IMG/VR virus record: IMGVR_UViG_3300042566_001359
Origin: a virus
Lineage: Duplodnaviria > Heunggongvirae > Uroviricota > Caudoviricetes > Demerecviridae
DNA: 64,000 bases
Reading direction: 5' to 3' (one strand)
Shown: one piece after another, positions 3,001-55,002 of the stretch
How the letters are laid out: each line of letters starts with the position of its first letter
Position numbering within the stretch: position 1 is the first letter of the stretch
The notes under the pieces: generated by a model
What the model was told of the DNA's origin: nothing
The model's input: the letters and a program-made list of their open reading frames with translations, nothing else
Databases searched by the model: none
Translations under genes and position numbers: made by a program

Positions 3001-3868
3001 AAAAGAATCTCAAGAACTTGTGGTACTATCCATAGAGCCCAGCGATAATACCAGCGCACGTTTAACACTAACAGACTACAGTCCAGAAATTTATACCATA
3101 AACATGAATTCGGACGACGATCTTCCAAGCTTTGATCCTAACATTAGTGGTGGCAGCAATCAATCTGTGCTGAATACTATCACACAGGCGCCCGTTATTG
3201 TTGGAGCCAGCAGCGGCAGTAGCCTAGCCGAAGAAATTGCCACTGGAACGTTTCAAAACGTATTGTTAATAAGTTTTGGTAATGTACCAGCATTAAGCGA
3301 AGCAGCGCAAAAAATTCAAGTTCAAGTTGTACTAGGCGACAGCGACTTTAGTTCTGGAAGCTTATTTGGTACTTACCTGCTGGATAAATCCACAGGCAGC
3401 TTAAGTTTAACAGGCCTAAAGACTCTTACTATTTACAAAATTCGTGCACGTTATATAAATGCAACAGGCTCTATAAGTGGACCTTGGAGTCCTATCTTCT
3501 ACACTACTTCCACAGGTAAGGTAGACAACGACTATATTGTGGACTCGCTGATAGTTGAGCTAGAAGATATATTTATTACTGCAATACCTGCTACCACACT
3601 GGATAAACCAGCAGACTTTAAAACTTTTGAGTACAGGCTGTACAAAGACACTGGTAACGAAGACTTCTGGGAACTGGATCCAGCTACTAATGGAATCCTT
3701 GTAGTACAAACAACCGATGTTGCAAGATTTAACTTGTTAAACGTACCACAACCAAGAATTTCTACTGCGGGTATAACATATCGAGTAGCATGCAGAGCCT
3801 TGGATAACAACAACAACTATAGCGCACAAAGTGCTTTGGGTACAATAGTTATTGCAACTATTAAATGA
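1..3868 (+). CDS. Tail tip / host-specificity (J-like) structural protein, 5' end outside window (annotated Met at 128 but frame open from nt 2)
   Basis: 1246-aa ORF; frame has no stop upstream to window edge; N-terminal IPVVLGKMRVTG-type motif resembling lambda J-family tail tip proteins; large beta-rich protein at start of fibre module. Confidence 0.6.
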   Translation, partial: LTLAVVAIATYVAGPGGGAKALSAATGFSTAVSTALIVTSVNMAGMALVNAIAPVRMPGQAPDPGSAAGLNLFTGASNQASRFGAIPVVLGKMRVTGVLGATPYVDTLTDTSLLNLLIVWGYGPLKVDDICVGTNPISNYYNKKDDADLEFAQDIPLPVTLYGNATDPGSAAEIAFNKLYGRDVEQQQVNIQLVNNSEDGNPWQEVAFAQDNTTAVDLAFTFPEGMRQLVISGDAAGAIQQATAAVEIQLRKKKSDGTWPAWAPRPSYAFGDYSAQTPNSVAYSDILLPIPDRFSTQEGIYKTLTQRHVYALSDTGTIVKFSGAVADDYTSISAELLAEYKSGSYAGLAGNDADQTTYTINPVLPLNGYKKICTVIQQGGSLFSIENHLSSYTGYYGLEATATQLNIFNSYSGGDEGGNFYLVNNGIKVEIKSGAIYALTSNQPVAGQSVVVFNRSNLTTYGAVAANSDRAWSKFLQENAVWSPGSSPTFDMTVNVEFPYTGYYHVEASADDEGTVYVDNRQVVGIPIPGFASTVSNLVYLEAGTYPVRVFAKNSGGPAGIACTITFNENGGLNNLPTPDTILVFGTPGFYHKRKDAFNFVYKIKNLPQGFYEARVRRVNDDVTEPESSLRNYNKVALLSATAYGNAIDPITNLPQGPINKIPNTNLAKTAIRIQSTSKANGSIDGVNALVQTICPDWDQYMGWTPKATSNPASLFVYVLTHPGNAYRIKAQDVESQIDLPTIQNWHGYCKNHKFEFNSVITQTQSVMDVLRDICAAGKASPSYVDGKWTVVVDQARPYVTQHFTPHNSWGFESTKLLPRLPDAFRVTFANSDKAYQADEILVFNFGKTKATAEVFEELSLPGVTNAKQAKHLARWHLAQTKLRPEVYTLNVDFEYLVCNRGDLVRVAHDVPLWGTGTGRIVSVSGSTITLSEPVYLTTGTQYQIRIRTNSPSTLPGSENSETYFLNPISASGTYTTLTASQAFGDAVESDNLYMLGEIGKESQELVVLSIEPSDNTSARLTLTDYSPEIYTINMNSDDDLPSFDPNISGGSNQSVLNTITQAPVIVGASSGSSLAEEIATGTFQNVLLISFGNVPALSEAAQKIQVQVVLGDSDFSSGSLFGTYLLDKSTGSLSLTGLKTLTIYKIRARYINATGSISGPWSPIFYTTSTGKVDNDYIVDSLIVELEDIFITAIPATTLDKPADFKTFEYRLYKDTGNEDFWELDPATNGILVVQTTDVARFNLLNVPQPRISTAGITYRVACRALDNNNNYSAQSALGTIVIATIK

Positions 3869-6800
3869 AAGAGATAATATGACAACATCAGCTGTGCTAT
3901 CACCAGGGATTAAATCCCTGCACCTTAGCTTAGATACTCCTGTTGACCTCGTTACCGGAAAGGTCCGTCGTGACCTTTCTGGTATTCGTGTTTGGTATTC
4001 TACACAAAGCGGATTCAATCCCAATAATAGTGAAGGAACCCAAGCTTTCAACGGTCTCAGTTCAGATATCACTATCAGTAACTTATTGGAAAGTACTCAG
4101 TACTTTGTTAGATACGCATTTATTAGTGCTATAGACCCTACTGTTTACACAATCTCACCACAGCTATCAGCATTAACTTATGACGAGAACGTCAGCGTTT
4201 ACGGAAACCTAACTAATCCAAGTAGTATAATTCAAACAAATAATGCTGGAACTAATGGTGATTATAGTGTAGCAGGTGGTGTATTCAAAGTATACAAGTA
4301 CAGCACTGAAGTTACCGGTCAAGGAGTTGTGTATGCGCTAGAGAGTAGCACTATAGTAGGCGGCCTGGCAGTAAGCATTAATCCAAATACTGGAGCATAC
4401 GCTGTAACTGGCTTAACTGATGACTATGGTTCAGTTATCTTGTCTGCTACATATGACGGCGTTACTATTCAAACCACACTGGTAGTAATTAAAGCTCGTG
4501 CTGGTGTGGACGGTACTAATGCGCAGCTATTAACAATTAATGCTGAAGGCACAGCCTTTGTGTTTAAAGATGCAGCAGCTAGCGCCAGCGACACTGCTAA
4601 ACTAACGCTAATTGCCAACCTTAAAAATGTAACTGGCACAGTAACCTGGACAGCAACCGCTTTTAATGTTAATAATGTAAGTTTAGGTCCTATTACTTTT
4701 ACCCAAACAGGTAACGCAATTGATATTAGTGCCGCACAATTTAATCCACCCGCTTATGCTAACACAGTTGCTTATGTTACGGTAACTGCTAGTCGTGTAC
4801 TTCTATCAGACACAGTTACACTATATCGTATTAACAACGGCACAGATCAGATAATTCTTGAGCTTACCAACGAGTCGCATACTATTCCTGCTTATTATGA
4901 CGGAACTACCGTACCTGCTAGCTATATTGGTAGTGGTACAGAAATACGTGTAAAACAAGGCAATCAATATTTAACTGTTGATAACACAGTACCATACGCG
5001 CCAGGAACTTGGACAGTTACTGCTGCCAACGGTGTAAATATTACACCAGACACAACACCTGGTATTTTTAGCAGCTACATTAACTATGACACTCATAGTA
5101 ACATGACAGCTGATCGTGCATACATTGACTATACTGTAACAGGTACCAGCCTAACTGGTGCGCCGTTTTCAATCTCACGCCGCCAAAGTTTTGCAAAGTC
5201 AGTGGCAGGTGAGCCAGGTGCAACAGCTACCCTAGTTAGATTAACTACTACTGAACTGGTCTTTATTAAGTTCAAAGACGGTACTTATAGTTCAAATAGC
5301 GTTACCATATACGCTAACACTCAAAATATTCCTACACCAGTGTTTGTGTGGAATAATGGTATTAACCCACCAGTTACAAAAGACAGCACTATAGACCCTG
5401 CAGCTAATCAGTTTGTATTTAACCGTCCTGCTGAGCTGGGCGTTTACACAATCACAGTAAGCGTAACAGATAAAAATAATCCCACACTGGGTACCGCTGT
5501 GGATTCTATGTCCATTGCTTTTATTGAAGAGGGCAGTGATGCCTACACGTTTCTTTTCAAAGATCCTGTAGCACAATTGAGTGCCAATAGTCTTGGAATC
5601 GTCGAAGGCGGCGTTACCAGTGTTGTAAACCACATTATTGGAGCACAAGGTATCGCACTGCTAGTGCCTGGTGCAGATATCGTATACAGCATAGACAGCA
5701 CAGAAAACTGTACAGCTACATTGGGTAGCGTAACTGGAACGTGGAACCAGCAATTTACAGTTAGTGGGGCATTTTTTACAAATGCCAGCATTACATCAGC
5801 CAGCGTAACCATCAAGTGCCAAGTTCCTGGCGGAATCTACTACTTGATGAAAACTTCCTATACAAAAGTACGCAAAGGTGAAACCGGTGCTGCCGGAGCT
5901 GCTGGAGCCAATGCCGTTTTTGCAGACTTGTTAAGTGAAGCAGATGTTGTCACCACACTAACAGACGGTACTGGATACACACTGCCTAGTGGTAATGCCC
6001 TGCAATTATACAGCGGGGGTACACTGGTTACTACGGGCGTTACTTATGGTGGCGGTGCTACTAAGAATGGTCTAACACTTGCTATTAATGCAACTGGTGC
6101 GATCACACTAAGTGGTGCTGCTTGGACCAGCAATCAAGAAACTTTTAACGTAACAGCAACACTTGCTGGCACAGCTTATACTGCAATCTATACAATTGCA
6201 AAATCAAAAGCCGGTAGCGATGCCGTGTTTGTAGACTTGTTAAGTGAAGCAGAAGTGGTTAACAGCGCAGCTGATGGTACTGGATACACCCTACCAACGG
6301 GCAATAGCATGCGCCTATTCAAAGGCGGTGTGCAAGTAACTAGTGGAGTCACCTACAGTGGCGGTGCCTCACAGAATGGCTTAACACTGGCAATTAATAG
6401 CAGCACTGGAGCAATCACACTGAGTGGTGCAGCCTGGACTAGCACCAAAGAAACATTTACATTAACTGCTACTTACAGTGGTGTAGCGTATACCTATACC
6501 TACAAGATTACCAAAGCTCGTCAAGGAACCACAGGTACACCAGGTACACCTGGAACTAATGGAACCAACGGTACAAATGGAACTAATGGAACCAATGGCG
6601 TAAACGCAGTAAAGTCCACAAGCGGATATATCTACTATACTAGTTCAACTGGCAGCAACCCAGGTACCCCAAGTGCCAGTAGTTTTAACTTTACCAACGG
6701 TAGTTTTACAGGTCTAACTGCTGGCTGGAGCACTACCATTACCATGACAGGTAACGGAACTTACTGGGCAACACGCTATGTGGTAACAGAATCAGCTTTT

Positions 6801-28909: not shown

Positions 28910-29602
28910 TTAGGCTAGTTTCCAGCCTTTATGGGTTTTTCTTACCTTATTTAAGACTCCACATAAGTGGCTCTTATTAAGATCATGCTGTCTAGCAAAT
29001 TCGCTAAGATTACTTATAGTGTATGCAGTGTTATTTGGTGATAGTATAATAGGGTACTTTATATTTTTATGTTTAGCGGTATTAATTGACCTATTATGTT
29101 TCAGACTAAGTAAACATTCATAGTCTTCTGAGTATAGTGAAGCTAACCATTTATGTGATTTACCTTTTGATATATCGCGAATAGTAGAAATTTCTACTCC
29201 AGTAGTTTTTGCAATATCCTTAAACGGAATGTCCAGTAAAAGATTTTTAAAAACTGTAAGTATTGTTTCTTTTGAGTACTTGGAATTAGGGTGTGCGTCT
29301 CCCTGTAGTCCAGTACCTCCGCCGCCCGCCTTTGAGTTAATATTAAATCCATTATTAACAGAATTAAAAATCTCAATAGCCTCATTTTCAAGCATATCTA
29401 AATTATCTTCTAAAGTACACTCTAGTAATACTTCTAAGTAAGGTACACCATATAATAAATAAGCTTGCTGCAATTTAATTGAGGCAATATTATTTGCTAG
29501 GTTGTATTTATGTTTAGTCAATCTTTCTTCTATTCTCAGAGATTGACCCACATAAACTTTATTAGTTCCATTAAATTTTAGTAAATAAATGCCTATAGTC
29601 AT
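28910..29602 (-). CDS. GIY-YIG homing endonuclease (start placed at MTIGIYLLKF; ORF track gives a TTG-extended start at 29620)
   Basis: GIYLLKF...NKVYVGQS...RL motif; C-terminal HKGWKLA DNA-binding tail paralogous to ORF 46825..47505. Confidence 0.8.
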   Translation of the reverse strand: MTIGIYLLKFNGTNKVYVGQSLRIEERLTKHKYNLANNIASIKLQQAYLLYGVPYLEVLLECTLEDNLDMLENEAIEIFNSVNNGFNINSKAGGGGTGLQGDAHPNSKYSKETILTVFKNLLLDIPFKDIAKTTGVEISTIRDISKGKSHKWLASLYSEDYECLLSLKHNRSINTAKHKNIKYPIILSPNNTAYTISNLSEFARQHDLNKSHLCGVLNKVRKTHKGWKLA

Positions 29603-29628: not shown

Positions 29629-29658
29629 TATTATACTATTTTGGACACAATATTTCAA
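29629..29658 (-). promoter_or_regulatory. Sigma70-type promoter (TTGAAA-N18-TATAATATA) for homing endonuclease gene
   Basis: minus-strand reading TTGAAATATTGTGTCCAAAATAGTATAATATAAAAT followed by AGGA RBS and ATG. Confidence 0.55.
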
Positions 29659-29676
29659 GTACAAATTTTTACTACG

Positions 29677-31644
29677 TCATTTTATAGGACAGGCTCCCGT
29701 GGCGCACTCTGCATCGGTAATTTCGTCAAAACTGTTGGTGTTATTTAAGTCTACTGTTAAAAGTGTTTTAACGTACTCGTGGTAAGTTTCTTCTGTTACT
29801 ACTTCTTGTGGAAGATATAAGTATCCAAGGTCTTTGGCAGTTTTAGTAGGGTCTGTGCGATAGATAAAACTCACACCCACATAACAATCCCAGTTTAGTA
29901 ACAACCAGTCAATGATCGCAGGAATTTCGCCGGGATCATAACTAATAGTTACTGATGTGTTCTGTTGGTTCCAACTAGTTTGCAATAGTTTGTAACGCTC
30001 CAACTGTACCACAGCTGATTCGATATTAACTTCTTTGCCGTCAACTTTATCAAATGGAACTCCATCCCACATTACTGGAAACGTAACAAGAACTCCAGAA
30101 TCATCAACAGGATGATTAATAACACGGTAACCCGCTTGACGTAGTTTTTCAACCACCGGGTCATGTTTGCTAAACTGAACATTGTTGAAAATGTACTTTC
30201 CTAGTGGTTTGTGTACTCCTTCTGGGCAATCCATGATTTTGCTGAGAGTGCCTGAAGGCTTGATACAAGTTACGTTCTTGGGAGCAGGTAAACCCAGTTC
30301 TAAACTCATACCCACAGCAGCCGATGTGGCAGTACGCTTTAAGTATTCATAGTCATAGCTGCCCATGTCAGGACGCATTGCAATACCAGTTAAGCCTACA
30401 CCGCAAAGTCGTAAGAAATAGTTGTTAAGGTGCCAAGACTCTTGAAGAATGCCGTCCTGAAGGTTAACACACGTTTGTCGGTAGTTGGCACGAGCTGCCA
30501 GTCGTATAGCGTTGTGCAAACCGGCAGTGTCGCCTTTGAACTTGGCAATGTCAGTTTCGGTAAGGTTACAGAAAGCCTTATTACCGAGTAAGATTTCAAC
30601 GCATGGATTGGCTCCCTTAAACCACGGAGCGCGTCTGAGTGCTTCAACTTCATTGATAAATCCTGGTTCACTACCACCGGCTTCAGTCATCATCCCAAAG
30701 ATGCGTTCTAAGTCGGTTTTTAGTGGTTTCTTTTTAAATACTAAACTGTTGTTTGATTGTGTGCGGTGCTGGTTATTATGCAACCACCAGTCTTTTTTGG
30801 CTACTGCGAATTCTTCCCATTCTGGCTGGTCATAGTCAAATAAAGCGATCTCGGCACTACGACGACTAGATAGAATAGTACCCAGGTGGTTAACAATATC
30901 GAGGATATCCATCCGAGTAAGTAAACTATCAGCACGGCCGTTGAGGATATTTGCAATAGCCACGTATGCAGTGGATATAGCACTGTCGCCACTTGAAATC
31001 CATCCATAGCCTTTTAGTCTTTCACCTGCTGGTCGTAGTTGCGAAAAGTCGAGTACGAGCGTATCAGCGGAATATTTTCCAGCCAGTAGTTTGCCAATTG
31101 ACTTTGCCCAGGCTTCTGCACTGTCTCCGATTTGAATTGTCCAGGTTTTGGTGTCTGGTTCCCAGTACTCAACGTTGTGCTCATTGCCACCTTTGGCAGT
31201 GCGTGTGCTTCTAACCACTCGAATGTTCTTGATTGGCTTTGAAAATCCATTTAGCGTTCCTACAATTGGTTTAAATCCAACGCCGCAACCTTGTAGCAAC
31301 AACCATAAGACGTCTACTACGTCATAGATTGTTTCAACGTGTGTAAAGCTGCAATTGAACTGAGATGCTTCACGTGTTTTGGCTACGTTAGTGCCGCCAA
31401 GCCACAGTGTGCGACCACTCATTAGCACTTTGCGATCTAGCATTAGTTGCTCAAGATCATAAAGTTCCGAGTATTCTAGGTCGTTTAAGTCACGACCAAC
31501 TGCCCGCTCCCACAACCACTGTTGGTGGTCAATAACACGTGCAACTGTTTCTGCCCATGTTTCAAATTGTTTTCCGTCGTCTGAGGTAGGGCGGTTGTAT
31601 GTACGACGTGTAATTACTTGTGCTCGTGTTGATGGTAGGTTCAT
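29677..31644 (-). CDS. Ribonucleotide reductase catalytic subunit (class I NrdA-like or class II NrdJ-like; class not resolvable by eye)
   Basis: 655 aa; GANPCVEIL (N-x-C-x-E active site), N-terminal RTYNRP...ETWAETVARV, C-terminal Cys pair CATGACPIK; no nrdB-like ORF within window. Confidence 0.8.
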   Translation of the reverse strand: MNLPSTRAQVITRRTYNRPTSDDGKQFETWAETVARVIDHQQWLWERAVGRDLNDLEYSELYDLEQLMLDRKVLMSGRTLWLGGTNVAKTREASQFNCSFTHVETIYDVVDVLWLLLQGCGVGFKPIVGTLNGFSKPIKNIRVVRSTRTAKGGNEHNVEYWEPDTKTWTIQIGDSAEAWAKSIGKLLAGKYSADTLVLDFSQLRPAGERLKGYGWISSGDSAISTAYVAIANILNGRADSLLTRMDILDIVNHLGTILSSRRSAEIALFDYDQPEWEEFAVAKKDWWLHNNQHRTQSNNSLVFKKKPLKTDLERIFGMMTEAGGSEPGFINEVEALRRAPWFKGANPCVEILLGNKAFCNLTETDIAKFKGDTAGLHNAIRLAARANYRQTCVNLQDGILQESWHLNNYFLRLCGVGLTGIAMRPDMGSYDYEYLKRTATSAAVGMSLELGLPAPKNVTCIKPSGTLSKIMDCPEGVHKPLGKYIFNNVQFSKHDPVVEKLRQAGYRVINHPVDDSGVLVTFPVMWDGVPFDKVDGKEVNIESAVVQLERYKLLQTSWNQQNTSVTISYDPGEIPAIIDWLLLNWDCYVGVSFIYRTDPTKTAKDLGYLYLPQEVVTEETYHEYVKTLLTVDLNNTNSFDEITDAECATGACPIK

Positions 31645-38298: not shown

Positions 38299-38327
38299 AT
38301 TATACTACATTGACCAACGTTTGACAA
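38299..38327 (-). promoter_or_regulatory. Sigma70-type promoter (TTGTCA-N17-TATAATATAGTCT)
   Basis: minus-strand reading TACACTTGTCAAACGTTGGTCAATGTAGTATAATATAGTCT; same architecture and near-identical flanks at 46779..46807. Confidence 0.6.
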
Positions 38328-44873: not shown

Positions 44874-45173
44874 TTACCCTACTTTCGCTTCATTGTCAAT
44901 AATAACTTGATCTACGATTTCGGTAACTTTGTACATTATCTGATCTCGTAATTTTTTAATATCTTGCTGATACGTTGCACCACTGTCATACAACAAACTC
45001 AATTGCTCGTGAGTTAGTAGCTGTTGTAGCCCAAAATAAATGTGGTCATAAGCCATTGTAGATTCTGGAGTGATTTCTATCTGAGCAGCTTTACCGTAAT
45101 TTTTAACTGCAAAAGAAACTACTTCCTCTACTGTTAAAGATTCATTGTCGTGGTATGTGATTGTAACACGCAT
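44874..45173 (-). CDS. Hypothetical protein
   Basis: 99-aa ORF. Confidence 0.5.
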   Translation of the reverse strand: MRVTITYHDNESLTVEEVVSFAVKNYGKAAQIEITPESTMAYDHIYFGLQQLLTHEQLSLLYDSGATYQQDIKKLRDQIMYKVTEIVDQVIIDNEAKVG

Positions 45174-45190: not shown

Positions 45191-45227
45191 CAGAAAAAGC
45201 CCGGGAGCTTTATGGGACTCCCGGGCT
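45191..45227 (-). terminator. Rho-independent terminator
   Basis: GCCCGGGAGCTTTATGGGACTCCCGGGC hairpin followed by U-run on minus strand. Confidence 0.7.
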
Positions 45228-45243: not shown

Positions 45244-45993
45244 TTAAGCTGCTGCTTTAGCTTCGGCTTTGGCTTTTTTAGCTGCACCATCATAGTCAGC
45301 AACTTTGATACCACGGCGAGTCAGCAATGTACGCAGACCACGTTCTGTTTTGTCAACAGCAGCTGCAATTTCTGCAACTGTCATGGTGTGAATACGATCA
45401 CCAAGGGCAACCACCGGATCAACGGATTCTTTGGCATGAGATTCGCGCTGTGCTGGAATCTTGCTAATCTGACCTTTGCGTGTCAAGCTCAGGGCTTTAC
45501 CACGAACACTGGCAACAGTCTTGTTGAGCTTGGCAGCGATATCTTCAATAAAGTTACCGGCATCAGCCATTTTCACAAAAGTGGCTTCTTCGGCTTCGGT
45601 ATAAGTACGAGCCACTTCCACTTTTTCAGCTGGCTTTACACTGCCAGTTAGTTCCAGGGCCAGCAATTTGCCTTGGATTTGTTTTGCAGTGAACTTGCCG
45701 TCAGCAAAGTTTTCAGCAATTTCTTTGTAAGTCAAGTTACCTGCATTAGCACTCACGAAATCGGCAAGATCAGCGCCTTCGTCGGGTGTAAATGCACTGG
45801 TTTTTTCTTTTGCAAGACTAGCAACTTCACGGTCAAGTTGACGCAGTTTAGATGCAATACTGCGAGTAGTTTTACCCAGTTGTTCAGCAGCACGCTCAAC
45901 GCTATCAACGCTAACGGGGCTTTCGCTTCCAACGATTTGCATCAGTTGGTCAACAGCTTCGTCAGACCAGTTTTTAGTAGCTTTTTCAGTCAT
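45244..45993 (-). CDS. Hypothetical protein with duplicated helical domain
   Basis: 249 aa; two related ~100-aa repeats; domain also resembles ORF 51641..52006. Confidence 0.5.
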   Translation of the reverse strand: MTEKATKNWSDEAVDQLMQIVGSESPVSVDSVERAAEQLGKTTRSIASKLRQLDREVASLAKEKTSAFTPDEGADLADFVSANAGNLTYKEIAENFADGKFTAKQIQGKLLALELTGSVKPAEKVEVARTYTEAEEATFVKMADAGNFIEDIAAKLNKTVASVRGKALSLTRKGQISKIPAQRESHAKESVDPVVALGDRIHTMTVAEIAAAVDKTERGLRTLLTRRGIKVADYDGAAKKAKAEAKAAA

Positions 45994-46753
45994 TTGTATT
46001 TTCTTTCAAGAAAGTATTTAGGTTTGTTATAATTGGGATGCCAAGTGATTCGGCTTTTTTGCGTTTTGTACTAGCCTTATCTTCTTCATCAACCAAATAG
46101 TCAGTGGTTTTAGTCACAGACTCTACTGCTCTGTATCCGGCAGCTTCCAGTGCTTGATAAGCATCTGCTTTGGTTTTGTAAGAAGATAGTTTTCCAGTGA
46201 TACAAACAGTTTTAGAATTGTTGTTACTGATTGTATTGGAATTTCTATTAGACTTAAAAGAGAACGGCAAAAACTCTCGTAAGTCAGGGAAATCTGTTTG
46301 TAACCAACCAACTAGGTTTTCGGTTACTTTGTCGCCTAAACCGGCTTGTTTGCAGGTTTCGTATGTGATTTGATCAATATGCTCAACCACTTCACAAATC
46401 TTTTTTGATGCTGTGCTGCCAACTAGGGTAATCGAGAAACTTGCTAATACTGTGGCTAAGTCAACAGCTTTGGCACGTTCAATTTCATCAAGTAGTTTTG
46501 CGGCAGTTTTTTCACTGCCCAAGGCTTCTGTTACAGCGTCTAGATCAAGATAGAACAGCTCAGTTAAATCTTGTAAGTCAAGCTTTTCTACTGTCTTTGG
46601 GCCCATGCCTTTGATGCCAAGGGTCTTACAAAAGTGCTCTAGTTTTTTACCCAGCTGTGCACCGCAAGCTGTGTTGCGGCAAAAGAGTTGGTCATTGACC
46701 AATTCAAGTGTGTAGCTACAGCAGGGGCAAACGGTTGGGATTTCGATCTTCAT
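45986..46753 (-). CDS. ligA-C: NAD-dependent DNA ligase, C-terminal fragment (Zn-finger, HhH, BRCT-like)
   Basis: begins MKIEIPTVCPCCSYTLEL...C.N..C (LigA zinc finger), then HhH region LGIKGMGPKTVEKL; own promoter and RBS. Confidence 0.85.
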   Translation of the reverse strand: MKIEIPTVCPCCSYTLELVNDQLFCRNTACGAQLGKKLEHFCKTLGIKGMGPKTVEKLDLQDLTELFYLDLDAVTEALGSEKTAAKLLDEIERAKAVDLATVLASFSITLVGSTASKKICEVVEHIDQITYETCKQAGLGDKVTENLVGWLQTDFPDLREFLPFSFKSNRNSNTISNNNSKTVCITGKLSSYKTKADAYQALEAAGYRAVESVTKTTDYLVDEEDKASTKRKKAESLGIPIITNLNTFLKENTND

Positions 46754-46778
46754 AGTGGTTTATTGCTTTGTAGACTAT

Positions 46779-46807
46779 ATTATAACTGATTGGGACGGCT
46801 TTGACAA
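46779..46807 (-). promoter_or_regulatory. Sigma70-type promoter (TTGTCA-N17-TATAATATAGTCT) driving ligase C-fragment gene
   Basis: minus-strand TACACTTGTCAAAGCCGTCCCAATCAGTTATAATATAGTCT. Confidence 0.6.
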
Positions 46808-46824
46808 GTGTAAATTTTTAGTGC

Positions 46825-47505
46825 TTAAGCTAATGTCCAGCCTTTGTGATGGTTTCTAGTACCTTTTAAAACTTCCGTGAGTTTTGGTTGTAGTAGTCCG
46901 TGTTCTTTGGCAAAATTTGTAACGTGAGTAACTTCATAGACTTTGCCTTCTGGTGATTTTATGGAAGGGTATTGCTTGCCGTAATAGTAAGGTAACTCTT
47001 GTTTTATTCGTATCAGCTCTGCATATTCGTTAGGACATACTTCTGATAGCCAGCAGTGGCTTTCTAAGGCAGCTATGTGCCTTATTGTATATATAGATAT
47101 ACCTGTTATTTCCTCTATTTCACGCTTACTTAATGTAGGAGCTTTCTGTATTAATAATCGTAATACTGAAATATACTGCTCATTAGTATACTTTGCAGTA
47201 CCTGATCTTTCTCCAAACATAATGGGATTACCAGACTCACTAAGAGTATTAAATCCGTTATTTACGGAGTCAAATATTTCTATAGCTTCTTTTTCAGTAC
47301 TATTTAGAGCAGCTATGTTAGCTTCTACCAATAGCTCTAGATTAGGCATTCCGTAGGTATTAAATGCTTGCTGTAATTTAGGTGCAGCTGCATTTCTATT
47401 AAAAGCACTTTTGTGCTTAATAAATCTATCCTCTATATCCAAGGACTGACCTATATAAACCTTATTTGTATAATTAAATCTTAACACATAAATTCCAGTA
47501 GTCAT
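46825..47505 (-). CDS. GIY-YIG homing endonuclease inserted between the two ligase fragments
   Basis: MTTGIYVLRFNYTNKVYIGQS...R..KH motif; C-terminal HKGWTLA; paralogue of 28910..29602. Confidence 0.8.
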   Translation of the reverse strand: MTTGIYVLRFNYTNKVYIGQSLDIEDRFIKHKSAFNRNAAAPKLQQAFNTYGMPNLELLVEANIAALNSTEKEAIEIFDSVNNGFNTLSESGNPIMFGERSGTAKYTNEQYISVLRLLIQKAPTLSKREIEEITGISIYTIRHIAALESHCWLSEVCPNEYAELIRIKQELPYYYGKQYPSIKSPEGKVYEVTHVTNFAKEHGLLQPKLTEVLKGTRNHHKGWTLA

Positions 47506-47524
47506 ATTTACCTCACTTGCTTAT

Positions 47525-47554
47525 ATTATAGCACATGAGGTATAATTTGTCCAA
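47525..47554 (-). promoter_or_regulatory. Sigma70-type promoter (TTGGAC-N18-TATAATATA) for the ligase-interrupting endonuclease
   Basis: minus-strand TTGGACAAATTATACCTCATGTGCTATAATATAAG then ATG. Confidence 0.5.
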
Positions 47555-47564
47555 CCAAAATTTT

Positions 47565-48515
47565 TTATGCATCAACTTTATGTAAAATACACGGAATAAT
47601 CATGCCTGCGCGAATAACGGCCACGGTGTCGCCAATACGCAAGTCTAGCATTTGAATAAAACCAGGATTATTAAGAGTAGCACGACTGACGAGAGCATCG
47701 CCAATAAGCACAGGTTCAAGAATTGCCACTGGGCTAACTTTGCCACTCTTGCCGACTTGCCACTCAACTGCAACAAGTTTGGTTTCAACGTGGGCTGCTC
47801 GTTCTTTTTTAGCATACGCACCGCGCGGATGCTTGGCCGTATACCCCATCTCGTAGAACTGACTATTGTTATTGACTCGGAAGACAACACCATCGCACGG
47901 GAATATTTTGTCGAGATCTGGTTCATTGATTACTCCAAAACCTGCCAGTTGCAGTGCTGCCAAGTCTGCGTTAAATGTTTCGTGTAGGCTAGGCTGAACG
48001 CCATAGGCAAAGAAACTCAGTGCTCGTGATTGAAATTCCGACACATCTTTTAAGTTAAGTGCGCCTGCTGCATAGTTGCGAGCATTTTCAATATTGAGTG
48101 GAGCCACAATCTCGCCAGTGATCTGGTAAACGCCTGGCCACGGCACAGTTTGTGGCACAATAGGATTGCCCAAGAACTTGTCAGTTACAATCTGACCTTC
48201 TACACCATCCCCACGGGTAAGAACTCGAACAAGATTACCGTCAACATAAAGTAAGCTAAGAGCTGCCCCATCAAGCTTAATGCTTGTAGCAACCGATCTA
48301 ATACCTTGGAGTGGTTGGGTACCTTCATCTTCGTAATACTTTTGCAGTGAATACATTTGATACAAGTGACGCTCAGTTTTTGAGTTCTGCTTAGCGCCCA
48401 CAGCATTATAGCCTACTGACGCAGCAAGCGCATCAAACTGTGCGTCAGTGATAAATGGGCTACCTGCGTAATACGCGGCTGAAGCTGAGTCGAGATATTG
48501 TGTGATTTTGTTCAT
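47565..48515 (-). CDS. ligA-N: NAD-dependent DNA ligase, N-terminal fragment (adenylation + OB domains)
   Basis: KLDGAA (K-x-DG adenylation motif), LTRGDGVEG, OB-fold motif VAVEWQVGKSGKVSPVAILEPVLIGDALVSRATLNN...GDTVAVIRAGMIIP; stops exactly at OB/Zn-finger boundary. Confidence 0.85.
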   Translation of the reverse strand: MNKITQYLDSASAAYYAGSPFITDAQFDALAASVGYNAVGAKQNSKTERHLYQMYSLQKYYEDEGTQPLQGIRSVATSIKLDGAALSLLYVDGNLVRVLTRGDGVEGQIVTDKFLGNPIVPQTVPWPGVYQITGEIVAPLNIENARNYAAGALNLKDVSEFQSRALSFFAYGVQPSLHETFNADLAALQLAGFGVINEPDLDKIFPCDGVVFRVNNNSQFYEMGYTAKHPRGAYAKKERAAHVETKLVAVEWQVGKSGKVSPVAILEPVLIGDALVSRATLNNPGFIQMLDLRIGDTVAVIRAGMIIPCILHKVDA

Positions 48516-48695
48516 AGCAACTATTATAGCAGTTTAGGGTCGCGGCTTCAAGTGTATTTTTAAAAGTGCTTGCCAAATGCACAGTAAATAGCAAACCACT
48601 TATTAGTGGGATTGCCTTCGTGTGCAGGGTTATAGTGCCAAGCAATATAAGGCATATTTCTACTAATTTGAAAATGCCTACAACCAAAACGTATA

Positions 48696-49076
48696 TTAAA
48701 GAGTAGGTTGCTCATGCTTTTCCTTGATTTTGTTGTAGTAGTGCGTGATAATTTCTTCACCTTCGGCACGGGCACAGATATCCAACATACCATCAATAAT
48801 GCCGCGCATGTTTTCCAGCGAGGCTGGAATGCTTACACCTTCACGGCTAGGAACCCACTCACCTTCATACGACAAAAAGTACTTGCGTAGTTGGATGTAA
48901 GTGGTTTCGCGAAAGTCGTTTACCACTAGTCGAACCTGAAAACCTTTGTCCATGTTTTCTTCGATTAGTTTTTCGTATTGTATATTAGCGTCCATAATTA
49001 TTCCGGTTTTGGCGCCTGTATAATTTTCTGCAGGCTTTTGTGATCTGCTGGCCAAGCCCAGTGTGTGGCAGCCCAA
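48696..49076 (-). CDS. Hypothetical protein
   Basis: 126-aa ORF. Confidence 0.45.
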   Translation of the reverse strand: MGCHTLGLASRSQKPAENYTGAKTGIIMDANIQYEKLIEENMDKGFQVRLVVNDFRETTYIQLRKYFLSYEGEWVPSREGVSIPASLENMRGIIDGMLDICARAEGEEIITHYYNKIKEKHEQPTL

Positions 49077-54575: not shown

Positions 54576-54932
54576 TTAGATACTAACAGTTTGTGGTTGT
54601 GGCACAGTCAATTCTGCGCCTTCCAAGCACGCAAACAAAAATGTCTTGCCTGGGTTTAGTTTTGCCAAACGACGGCACTCACTACGAGCATCTGCACGGT
54701 AATTGTGTACAACAGGTACAGCACTAAAACTAAGGCCTACATTTGGTTGGTAGCTGCCAACAATATATCGTTTGTTGCGAACAGCTTCGTGTGCGGAATT
54801 TTGATTGTCAATTGTTTTTGGTGTCATATTAATTTGATTTAGTTCATTTATTTCGTTAAGTTTCATAATATCGTTTCTCATGTTACCTAGTATGCTGGAT
54901 AACACGATAGCTTCATCGCTGTCTGAATTCAT
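54576..54932 (-). CDS. Hypothetical protein
   Basis: 118 aa. Confidence 0.5.
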   Translation of the reverse strand: MNSDSDEAIVLSSILGNMRNDIMKLNEINELNQINMTPKTIDNQNSAHEAVRNKRYIVGSYQPNVGLSFSAVPVVHNYRADARSECRRLAKLNPGKTFLFACLEGAELTVPQPQTVSI

Positions 54933-55002
54933 AATGAAAAATCCCCTAAAGAAGTATATATTATACTCAATTTAGGGGATTTGTTCAAGACTAAATTTTC
55001 AG
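54933..55002. promoter_or_regulatory. Hairpin AAATCCCCTAAA...TTTAGGGGATTT enclosing the conserved TATATTATAC promoter core
   Basis: 11-bp inverted repeat flanking the GTATATATTATAC motif upstream of ORF 54576..54932. Confidence 0.45.

What the first reader, a model, noticed from the sequence alone, without database searches (positions are those of the whole stretch)
45986..48515. NAD-dependent DNA ligase split into two independently promoted genes by a GIY-YIG homing endonuclease
The N-fragment (47565..48515) carries the KxDG adenylation and OB domains and stops exactly at the domain boundary. The C-fragment (45986..46753) starts with its own Met directly at the Cys4 zinc finger and continues through the HhH region. 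The 811-bp gap between them is almost entirely the endonuclease ORF, leaving only ~130 bp of non-ORF sequence. That is too little for a group I intron core, so this is a free-standing endonuclease insertion producing a two-subunit ligase. Each of the three genes has its own TTGNCA-N17/18-TATAATATA promoter; the C-fragment promoter is nearly identical to the one at 38299..38327. T5-like phages are reported to carry ligase A/B subunits, but the promoter-per-fragment organisation is worth documenting.
Basis: partly seen in the sequence, partly recalled or inferred. Interest (0 to 1): 0.55.

Follow-up and report, generated by a model that had tools for sequence, protein, structure and literature searches.

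The report
Homing endonuclease inside an already-split ligase
A distant T5-like phage carries the two-gene NAD-dependent DNA ligase typical of its family, and a selfish GIY-YIG homing-endonuclease cassette has recently landed in the short spacer between the two genes without having caused the split.

Summary
The three ORFs, the breakpoint and the promoters are real. ligA (47565..48515) holds the adenylation and OB domains. ligB (45986..46753) holds the Cys4 zinc finger, HhH region and BRCT. A 226-aa GIY-YIG ORF (46825..47505) lies between them.

The causal reading is wrong. All 85 relatives examined have the same split, including T5, whose ligA-ligB gap already carries annotated promoters P-K 28a/b. 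About 60 of them have only a 66-93 bp spacer and no endonuclease. A solved two-chain structure (9hu3, Providencia phage PR1) matches both fragments end to end.

A relative with 99% identical ligase (L007) has the empty site. This defines a 740-bp, 34% GC cassette inserted exactly at the ligA stop codon. The ligB promoter is native; the endonuclease promoter arrived with the cassette.

The endonuclease is under purifying selection (dN/dS about 0.1). At least four divergent GIY-YIG lineages occupy the same site in other relatives. Occupied alleles carry diverged ligA 3' ends, which looks like homing. The cassette promoter sits inside an RNA hairpin that would hide the ribosome-binding site in read-through transcripts, as in T4.

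Verdict: an ordinary free-standing homing endonuclease in a known split-ligase locus. Interest is low to moderate.

The parts
48523..48551 (-). ligA promoter, TTGAAG-N17-TATAAT. Only 7 nt separate the -10 hexamer from the ligA ATG.
   Evidence: 10 of 12 matches, TG before the -10. It is conserved in L007 and in most relatives, together with the spacer GACCCTAAACTG.
47565..48515 (-). ligA, the N-terminal ligase subunit: shortened domain Ia, adenylation domain with KLDG, and OB fold.
   Evidence: dN/dS against relatives is 0.04-0.08.
47568..47619 (-). Diverged tract at the 3' end of ligA next to the insertion. It is a putative co-conversion tract and/or an endonuclease-resistant target variant, and includes the Glu-to-Met change in AG[E/M]IIPC.
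   Evidence: 13 of the 29 ligA mismatches to L007 fall in these 52 bp. The profile is 12 mismatches in the first 50 bp and then 3, 0, 0. It is the second-densest 50-bp window in 8.5 kb. The non-Glu residue is associated with GIY-YIG occupancy, Fisher p = 3e-5.
46825..47564 (-). The 740-bp mobile cassette that is absent from L007. Its boundaries are ambiguous by 6 bp because GCNTAA is repeated at both ends. GC content is 34%.
   Evidence: Alignment of occupied and empty sites. GC is 34% against 46% for ligA, 40% for ligB and 43% for the window. Junction repeats are shown.
47525..47554 (-). Cassette-borne promoter of the endonuclease gene: TTGGAC-N18-TATAAT with an extended -10.
   Evidence: 11 of 12 matches, TG. 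It is absent from the empty site and conserved in homologous cassettes.
47506..47546 (-). Predicted RNA hairpin. The 5' arm UACCUCAU lies upstream of the -10, the TATAAT is in the loop, and the 3' arm GUGAGGUA is the Shine-Dalgarno sequence.
   Evidence: dG -17.9 kcal/mol, z -3.76. Equivalent hairpins occur in five other cassettes, two of them from unrelated GIY-YIG lineages.
46825..47505 (-). GIY-YIG homing endonuclease ORF, 226 aa: an I-TevI-like catalytic domain, a central helix-turn-helix-like segment and an I-HmuI-like NUMOD C-terminal domain.
   Evidence: dN/dS among four homologues is 0.07-0.15.
46779..46807 (-). Native ligB promoter, TTGTCA-N17-TATAAT.
   Evidence: 11 of 12 matches. 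It lies in the 71-bp spacer that differs from the empty-site relative L007 at a single base, at 46821, outside the promoter.
45986..46753 (-). ligB, the C-terminal ligase subunit: Cys4 zinc finger (C9, C12, C25, C30), HhH region and BRCT.
   Evidence: dN/dS is 0.08-0.14.
45244..45993 (-). D5-like transcription factor gene. It overlaps the ligB stop by 8 nt, as in T5.
   Evidence: phrog_323.
45198..45227 (-). Intrinsic-terminator-like hairpin that ends the ligA-(endonuclease)-ligB-D5 transcription unit.
   Evidence: 11-bp stem with 8 G-C pairs, followed by a T tract.

Best explanation
The window comes from a distant T5-like (Demerecviridae-type) phage. Its NAD-dependent DNA ligase is encoded by two genes, ligA and ligB, as is normal for that family. 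The genes are cut in the linker between the OB fold and the zinc finger, and the products presumably assemble into a heterodimer.

A 740-bp free-standing GIY-YIG homing-endonuclease cassette was later inserted exactly at the ligA stop codon, inside the native 71-bp spacer. The left end of the cassette supplies a replacement ligA terminus (GAT GCA TAA). The endonuclease ORF terminates on the remnant of the original ligA terminus (GCT TAA). The native ligB promoter follows untouched.

Inferred mechanism, not shown: in a mixed infection the endonuclease cleaves endonuclease-less genomes in or near the conserved 3' end of ligA. Repair from the donor then copies the cassette together with the adjacent ligA sequence. 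Occupied alleles are protected by substitutions there, such as Glu to Met or Asp in AGEIIPC.

Also inferred: the cassette's own promoter lies inside an RNA hairpin that pairs the ribosome-binding site with upstream sequence. The endonuclease would therefore be translated only from transcripts that start at its own promoter, and not from read-through out of ligA.
For: Split is ancestral and known:
- T5 has ligA and ligB with the same breakpoint, and annotated promoters in the gap.
- Salmonella S124, Aeromonas TS3 and Vibrio D239 are split without an endonuclease.
- All 80 IMG/VR relatives are split, most with a 66-93 bp spacer.
- PHROGs has separate families for each subunit, and both match end to end.
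- PDB 9hu3/9i5i holds both chains, from the T5-like Providencia phage PR1.
- The literature describes A and B ligase subunits in T5-like phages (PMC4319617).

Insertion is secondary:
- L007 (99% identical ligase) has the empty site, and the indel is a clean 740 bp.
- The cassette is 34% GC against 40-46% for its neighbours.
- Its distribution is patchy. Homologues at 68-70% identity occur in only 3 other lineages.

Gene is active:
- GIY, YIG and Arg27 align with I-TevI.
- dN/dS is 0.07-0.15.

Homing signature:
- 12 mismatches fall in the 50 bp of ligA that abut the cassette, against about 1 per 50 bp elsewhere.
- The same ligA-side excess is seen in L038/L036 and L050/L053.
- The non-Glu variant tracks with occupancy (5 of 6 against 2 of 50, p = 3e-5).

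Regulation:
- Hairpins that sequester the RBS and hold the promoter inside them occur in all six cassettes folded, with z from -3.3 to -5.8.
- The native ligA, ligB and 38327 promoters lack such hairpins.
- The same logic is documented for T4 I-TevI, segB and Aeh1 mobE (PMC2988022).
Against: - No cleavage site, homing event or transcript start has been measured, so those steps are inference.
- One occupied lineage (L060/62/67) keeps the Glu codon and shows no excess divergence against its nearest empty relative. Two empty haplotypes carry Met (L080 and L084).
- T4 free-standing endonucleases often cleave hundreds of bp from their own gene (PMC2988022), so the target need not be the adjacent 50 bp.
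- The phage genomes are mosaic. An even denser mismatch patch lies at 45080..45129, unrelated to the cassette.
- The haplotypes used in the Fisher test are not phylogenetically independent.
- The Pfam GIY-YIG and NUMOD-like hits are below the gathering scores.
Confidence: 0.85

Rival explanations
1. One reading: insertion of this GIY-YIG gene split a once-continuous ligase into two genes, creating the two-subunit enzyme, as with the 'genes-in-pieces' nrdA of Aeromonas phage Aeh1.
For: The endonuclease lies exactly at the domain boundary. There is precedent for homing endonucleases splitting phage genes, namely Aeh1 mobE in nrdA and T4 mobA in gene 39/60 (PMC2988022).
Against: Every relative examined has the split with the same breakpoint, and most have no endonuclease. 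L007, with 99% identical ligase, has ligA stop, a 71-bp spacer with the promoter, and ligB start. The ligB promoter and start codon are therefore older than this insertion.
Confidence: 0.03
2. An ancient version of the same idea: the ancestral split of the Demerecviridae ligase was created by an early homing-endonuclease invasion at this site. The endonuclease was then lost in most lineages, and the site has been re-invaded repeatedly since.
For: - The junction is a recurrent landing site. At least four divergent GIY-YIG lineages occupy it: the window family, L039 (30% identity), L050 (no BLAST match) and Kamaji (25%).
- All of them terminate on remnants of the ligA terminus.
- Cassettes bring promoters, so losing the ORF could leave a promoter-bearing spacer like the one in T5.
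Against: There is no direct evidence. No unsplit close outgroup was examined. A conserved intergenic spacer next to a conserved gene is the normal niche of free-standing endonucleases regardless of how the split arose (PMC2988022).
Confidence: 0.2
3. The intervening sequence is a group I intron or an intein, and a continuous ligase is made by RNA or protein splicing.
For: GIY-YIG enzymes are often intron-encoded. The nearest structural match is intron-encoded I-TevI.
Against: - Rfam finds no match at E <= 1.
- Only 130 bp of the gap is non-ORF sequence, and most of it is promoters.
- ligA ends in a stop codon, and ligB has its own ATG and promoter.
- Empty-site relatives are still two genes, separated by 66-93 bp.
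- No Hint domain was found. The fragments align with LigA up to the break, with no spare residues.
- The homologous enzyme was solved as two separate chains.
Confidence: 0.01
4. The endonuclease ORF is a decaying, inactive remnant that merely persists between the ligase genes.
For: Pfam scores are below the gathering thresholds. Many phage homing endonuclease genes are degenerate.
Against: The ORF is full length in four lineages that differ by about 30% in protein, with pN about 0.2 against pS of 0.7-0.8. The catalytic GIY, YIG and Arg27 are retained. The promoter, Shine-Dalgarno sequence and regulatory hairpin are conserved.
Confidence: 0.07

Closest known systems
Bacteriophage T5 ligA/ligB (T5.116/T5.117) with promoters P-K 28a/28b in the gap
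   Same: The OB / zinc-finger breakpoint is the same. The gene order is the same (PC4-like regulator, ligA, ligB, D5), including the 8-nt ligB/D5 overlap. A promoter lies in front of each ligase gene.
   Different: Protein identity is only 38-42%. T5 has a 202-bp gap with two promoters and no endonuclease. T5 ligA has a normal leader with a Shine-Dalgarno sequence, whereas here the -10 hexamer is 7 nt from the ATG.
Providencia phage vB_PreS_PR1 two-chain NAD-dependent ligase, PDB 9hu3/9i5i
   Same: Both window fragments match the two chains end to end: ligA residues 4-315 at E 2e-61 and ligB residues 1-241 at E 2e-38. This is structural precedent for a heterodimeric ligase.
   Different: It comes from a different genus. 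No paper was found in the library, so activity data were not seen.
T4 free-standing GIY-YIG (seg) endonucleases and intron-encoded I-TevI
   Same: It has an I-TevI-like catalytic domain and occupies an intergenic position between conserved DNA-metabolism genes. Its distribution is patchy and the flanking DNA is diverged. The promoter is nested in an RBS-sequestering hairpin (PMC2988022).
   Different: The host is a T5-like siphovirus and not a T-even phage. The nested promoter looks like a sigma-70 promoter with an extended -10, not a T4 late promoter. The C-terminal DNA-binding region resembles the I-HmuI NUMOD-like domain. The cleavage site is unknown.
seg43(25) in the split DNA polymerase gene 43 of Aeromonas phage 25
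   Same: An endonuclease lies between the two halves of a split replication gene, and the split may pre-date the endonuclease (PMC2988022).
   Different: For phage 25 the order of events is uncertain. Here the empty-site allele shows directly that the split came first. [quoted passage not shown]
mobE in the split nrdA of Aeromonas phage Aeh1 ('genes in pieces')
   Same: An endonuclease lies between two halves of an essential enzyme that must reassemble, and an RBS-sequestering hairpin regulates the endonuclease (PMC2988022).
   Different: In Aeh1 the endonuclease insertion is thought to have created the split, and mobE belongs to the HNH family. Here the split exists without the endonuclease.

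Membership tests
NAD-dependent DNA ligase (LigA) | Adenylation (nucleotidyltransferase) domain with the KxDG lysine motif | tested here: met
   Pfam DNA_ligase_aden scores 86 bits against a cut-off of 27. KLDG aligns with the E. coli K115 motif.
NAD-dependent DNA ligase (LigA) | OB-fold domain after the adenylation domain | tested here: met
   Pfam DNA_ligase_OB scores 88.6 bits against a cut-off of 32.9, over residues 244-314.
NAD-dependent DNA ligase (LigA) | Cys4 zinc finger, HhH region and BRCT in the C-terminal half | tested here: met
   ligB residues 3-244 align with E. coli LigA (2owo) residues 402-662. Four Cys align with the E. coli zinc-finger cysteines. Pfam BRCT scores 22.4 against a cut-off of 21.3. 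No separate Pfam HhH hit was found, so the HhH region is supported by alignment only.
NAD-dependent DNA ligase (LigA) | N-terminal domain Ia, which confers NAD+ specificity | tested here: inconclusive
   The N-terminus aligns with E. coli domain Ia but with large deletions. A YY...D.QFD.L segment is retained. Cofactor use was not tested.
T5-type two-subunit ligase (LigA subunit phrog_3359 plus LigB subunit phrog_3498) | Two separate genes broken between the OB fold and the zinc finger, each matching its subunit family end to end | tested here: met
   phrog_3359 matches residues 1-315 of 316 at E 9e-95. phrog_3498 matches residues 1-253 of 255 at E 8e-72. The breakpoint is the same as in T5.
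T5-type two-subunit ligase (LigA subunit phrog_3359 plus LigB subunit phrog_3498) | Conserved synteny with the D5-like gene downstream | tested here: met
   The D5-like gene (phrog_323, E 1e-40) overlaps the ligB stop by 8 nt, as in T5.
T5-type two-subunit ligase (LigA subunit phrog_3359 plus LigB subunit phrog_3498) | The subunits associate and seal nicks | not testable with these tools
   Support is indirect only: the two-chain PDB entry 9hu3 of a homologue, and purifying selection on both genes.
GIY-YIG homing endonuclease | GIY-(10-11 residues)-YIG motif and the catalytic Arg | tested here: met
   Residues 1-53 align with I-TevI residues 1-54, including GIY, YIG and Arg27. PHROG homing-endonuclease families match at E 5e-11 and 1e-8. 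The Pfam GIY-YIG score of 20.9 is just below the 22.6 cut-off. The in-window paralogue scores 23.3 and passes.
GIY-YIG homing endonuclease | A separate C-terminal DNA-binding domain | tested here: inconclusive
   The I-HmuI NUMOD-like hit scores 22.7 against a cut-off of 27. Residues 182-225 align with I-HmuI (1u3e) at E 2.5e-3.
GIY-YIG homing endonuclease | Sporadic presence or absence among close relatives at a fixed site | tested here: met
   It is present in the window and L006 and absent from the 99% identical L007. Homologues occur in 3 further lineages out of about 50 haplotypes.
GIY-YIG homing endonuclease | Site-specific cleavage of endonuclease-less alleles and preferential inheritance with co-conversion | not testable with these tools
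   Only a sequence signature is available: diverged ligA 3' ends next to the cassette in 3 of 4 occupied/empty pairs, and a variant residue associated with occupancy.
Group I intron | A conserved catalytic RNA core detectable by covariance models | tested here: not met
   Rfam 15 in permissive E-value mode finds no match in 45500..49000. Only 130 bp of the gap lies outside the ORF.
Intein | In-frame insertion with Hint splicing domains and no stop codon between the exteins | tested here: not met
   ligA ends in TAA and ligB starts at its own ATG behind a promoter. No Hint domain was found by Pfam.

The most novel reading that the evidence does not exclude
The ligA|ligB junction of T5-like phages is a long-lived homing hot spot that at least four divergent GIY-YIG lineages use at nucleotide-identical positions. 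On this reading, the family-wide split of the ligase was itself created by an ancient endonuclease invasion at the OB / zinc-finger linker. The promoter-bearing spacers of T5 and its relatives would then be the scar left after the endonuclease was lost.
Probability: 0.2. Interest if true: 0.5.

Novelty: new member of a known kind. Interest (0 to 1): 0.3.

Why it matters
The main value is as a correction. The split ligase is an ancestral, structurally characterised feature of T5-like phages, and this endonuclease did not cause it.

The locus is also a clean natural example of intronless homing outside the T-even phages:
- A near-identical empty site defines the cassette to the base.
- Several unrelated GIY-YIG lineages have converged on the same landing site.
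- The ligA 3' variant gives a candidate target and immunity site.
- The regulatory design, a promoter inside an RBS-sequestering hairpin, matches the one worked out for T4.

It would suit experimental study of how free-standing endonucleases choose and protect their targets, and of whether adding a promoter upstream of ligB affects the balance between the two subunits.

Tried and rejected
- Megablast of the 3-kb region against GenBank phages gave no match, so the phage has no close sequenced relative there. tblastn was needed instead.
- Rfam in permissive mode gave nothing, so the intron reading was rejected.
- Searches for a paper behind PDB 9hu3 failed, both by code and by phage name. The source phage was identified by tblastn of the chain sequence instead.
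- The first attempt at the codon-association test read the wrong codon (Gly instead of Glu) and gave a meaningless table. It was redone from the printed translations.
- The conserved ligA promoter spacer GACCCTAAACTG was checked as a possible repeated operator. The other near-matches in the window lie in coding sequence and not in promoters, so it is not a general motif.
- The promoter-in-hairpin design was tested as a possible cassette-specific feature. It is not exclusive: 2 of 10 other promoter regions have it, one belonging to the second GIY-YIG cassette and one to an unrelated 118-aa gene.
- An I-TevI-style CNNNG cleavage motif about 20-24 bp upstream of the insertion site was considered. 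It is present in both occupied and empty alleles, so it tells us nothing.

Full report
OBSERVATION. On the minus strand the window carries ligA (47565..48515, 316 aa), a 226-aa ORF (46825..47505) and ligB (45986..46753, 255 aa). Pfam places the NAD-ligase adenylation and OB domains in ligA and a BRCT domain in ligB. In an alignment with E. coli LigA and with T5 LigA/LigB, ligA ends at about E. coli residue 398 (...RAGMIIPCILHKVDA) and ligB begins at about residue 405 (MKIEIPTVCPCC...). The break is therefore in the linker between the OB fold and the Cys4 zinc finger, and T5 has the identical breakpoint. The middle ORF aligns with the I-TevI catalytic domain, including GIY, YIG and Arg27, and its C-terminus aligns with the I-HmuI NUMOD-like domain. 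The three best sigma-70-like sites on the minus strand sit directly upstream of the three genes. They belong to a family of 16 minus-strand sites in the window, against 3.7 expected on both strands by chance. The similarity of the ligB promoter to the one at 38299..38327 is real. The stated consensus TTGNCA...TATAATATA fits ligB fully, the endonuclease promoter partly and ligA poorly.

WHAT THE PHAGE IS. There is no close DNA match in GenBank phages. The proteins are 38-47% identical to those of Demerecviridae (T5-like phages), and the gene order (PC4-like regulator, ligA, ligB, D5-like factor, helicase) is that of T5.

THE SPLIT IS ANCESTRAL AND ALREADY KNOWN. T5 itself has ligA and ligB separated by 202 bp, and that gap carries the annotated promoters P-K 28b and 28a, with a further promoter upstream of ligA. 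Salmonella S124, Aeromonas TS3 and Vibrio D239 are split without an endonuclease. T5-like genome papers refer to A and B subunits of the ligase (PMC4319617). PHROGs has separate families for the two subunits, and both match end to end. The PDB holds a two-chain structure, 9hu3/9i5i, whose chains match ligA (E 2e-61) and ligB (E 2e-38) over their full lengths. I traced it to the T5-like Providencia phage vB_PreS_PR1. Among 80 IMG/VR contigs with 63-100% LigB identity, every one that includes both genes has the split, and about 60 have only a 66-93 bp spacer.

THE ENDONUCLEASE IS A RECENT INSERTION. Contig L007 has 99% identical ligase proteins and 98.3% DNA identity over 8.5 kb, yet only a 71-bp spacer. 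Aligning the two gives one clean 740-bp indel (window 46825..47564). The 71 bp that carry the ligB promoter differ by one base between the two, so that promoter is native. The endonuclease promoter (47525..47554) lies inside the insert. The insert is 34% GC, against 46% for ligA, 40% for ligB and 43% for the window. At the junctions, the left end of the cassette supplies a new ligA terminus (GAT GCA TAA). The endonuclease ORF ends on the remnant of the old terminus (GCT TAA in the window, and ...VDA* in L032 and in the unrelated L050), which gives imperfect direct repeats of 6 to about 20 bp.

A RECURRENT LANDING SITE. The same gap holds homologues at 68-70% identity in three other lineages (L032-34, L038, L060/62/67). 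It also holds a 30%-identical GIY-YIG in L039, a GIY-YIG in L050 with no BLAST match to the window ORF, and a 25%-identical one in Serratia phage Kamaji. L074 and Vibrio D239 have other small ORFs there.

THE GENE IS MAINTAINED. Among four homologues pN is about 0.2 and pS is 0.7-0.8, giving dN/dS of 0.07-0.15. Both ligase genes also show dN/dS of 0.04-0.14.

HOMING SIGNATURE (INFERENCE). Between the window and L007, 13 of the 29 ligA mismatches lie in the last 52 bp of ligA (47568..47619). The profile per 50 bp moving away from the junction is 12, 3, 0, 0..., whereas the ligB side has one mismatch near the junction. This is the second-densest 50-bp window in the 8.5 kb compared. A similar ligA-side excess is seen for L038 against L036 and for L050 against L053, but not for L062 against L059. 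Empty alleles almost always encode AGEIIPC. GIY-YIG-occupied alleles encode M or D at the Glu position in 5 of 6 haplotypes, against 2 of 50 unoccupied (Fisher p = 3e-5; haplotypes are not independent). The position varies among LigAs in general: D in E. coli and G in T5. I infer that the enzyme recognises or cleaves the conserved 3' end of ligA, and that the variant tract is co-converted donor DNA, an immunity change, or both. T4 free-standing endonucleases can cleave far from their own gene (PMC2988022), so this placement is a hypothesis.

REGULATION (INFERENCE). RNA from 47564 to 47495 folds into a hairpin (dG -17.9 kcal/mol, z -3.76). The Shine-Dalgarno sequence GUGAGGUA pairs with UACCUCAU, which lies upstream of the -10 hexamer, and the TATAAT is in the loop. 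Transcripts that start at the cassette promoter, at about 47517, would lack the 5' arm. Read-through transcripts from ligA would contain it. No terminator was found between ligA and the terminator-like hairpin at 45198..45227. Equivalent hairpins occur in the three homologous cassettes and in the two unrelated ones, L039 and L050 (z from -3.3 to -5.8). The native ligA, ligB, 38327, 42469 and 53622 promoter regions show none. This is the arrangement documented for T4 I-TevI, I-TevII, I-TevIII and segB, and for Aeh1 mobE (PMC2988022). It is not exclusive to the cassette. The second GIY-YIG gene in the window has it, and so does an unrelated 118-aa gene.

RIVALS. An intron is excluded: Rfam finds no match, too little non-coding sequence is available, and the empty alleles are still split. 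An intein is excluded by the stop codon, the start codon and promoter, and the absence of a Hint domain. A decaying pseudogene is unlikely given the dN/dS values. An ancient endonuclease origin of the family-wide split remains possible but untested.

COMPARISON AND VERDICT. The ligase is a member of the known T5-type two-subunit LigA/LigB. The insert is a new member of the free-standing GIY-YIG homing endonucleases. The closest analogy is seg43 of Aeromonas phage 25, which may have invaded an already split polymerase gene (PMC2988022). Here the order of events is shown directly by the empty-site allele. This is ordinary biology and well documented elsewhere, so interest is about 0.3.

Noticed in passing
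window 48516..48551 (minus strand); L007-L034, L050-L063 and L085 upstream of ligA: The ligA -10 hexamer ends exactly 7 nt before the ATG and there is no Shine-Dalgarno sequence, which implies a leaderless or nearly leaderless ligA mRNA. The spacing and an unusually conserved promoter spacer (GACCCTAAACTG) are kept in relatives spanning 60-99% LigA identity. T5 itself has a normal leader. The spacer motif is not found in other promoters of the window.
   Followed up: partly
window 28910..29602 (minus strand), promoter 29630..29658: A second GIY-YIG homing endonuclease gene, 41% identical to the one in the ligase gap and ending ...HKGWKLA*. It sits immediately after the stop codon of a B12-dependent (class II) ribonucleotide reductase-like gene (29677..31644). 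It has the same promoter-inside-RBS-hairpin design, with z -4.15.
   Followed up: partly
window 48560..48721 (minus strand): A segment of about 153 bp that is absent from the near-identical L007. It changes the C-terminus of the PC4-like protein (48696..49076) and adds a 51-aa ORF (MSNLLFNIRFGCRHF...). That ORF has 49%-identical homologues at the same position upstream of ligA in L012, L015-L019 and L082.
   Followed up: partly
window 54915..55000 (minus strand): The promoter region of an uncharacterised 118-aa gene (54576..54932) forms a very stable hairpin (dG -25.5 kcal/mol, z -5.5). The arms are AAAUCCCCUAAA and UUUAGGGGAUUU. The hairpin encloses the -10 hexamer and pairs the likely ribosome-binding site. 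The design is therefore also used by a gene that is not an endonuclease.
   Followed up: no
window 45080..45129: This is the densest divergence patch between the window and L007, with 21 mismatches in 50 bp. It lies in the small ORF 44874..45173, just downstream of the terminator that follows the D5-like gene. It is a separate mosaic exchange, unrelated to the cassette.
   Followed up: no
L004 (Serratia phage Kamaji, ON287373.1) 3501..4217: The ORF between the Kamaji ligase genes is annotated as a hypothetical protein starting at locus position 3603. Reading from the ATG at 3501, which overlaps the ligA stop, restores an N-terminal GIY-YIG motif (MSSGLYRITNTITGDFYIGST). The deposited annotation appears to truncate a homing endonuclease.
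   Followed up: partly
L064, L065, L068-L070 (2222..2905); L048 (2168..2878); L052 (812..1501, opposite strand): Paralogues of the endonuclease at 32-39% identity sit at other positions around the same locus in relatives. In five contigs they lie immediately upstream of ligA, in one downstream of ligB, and in one on the opposite strand. The whole ligase neighbourhood is therefore colonised by this family.
   Followed up: no
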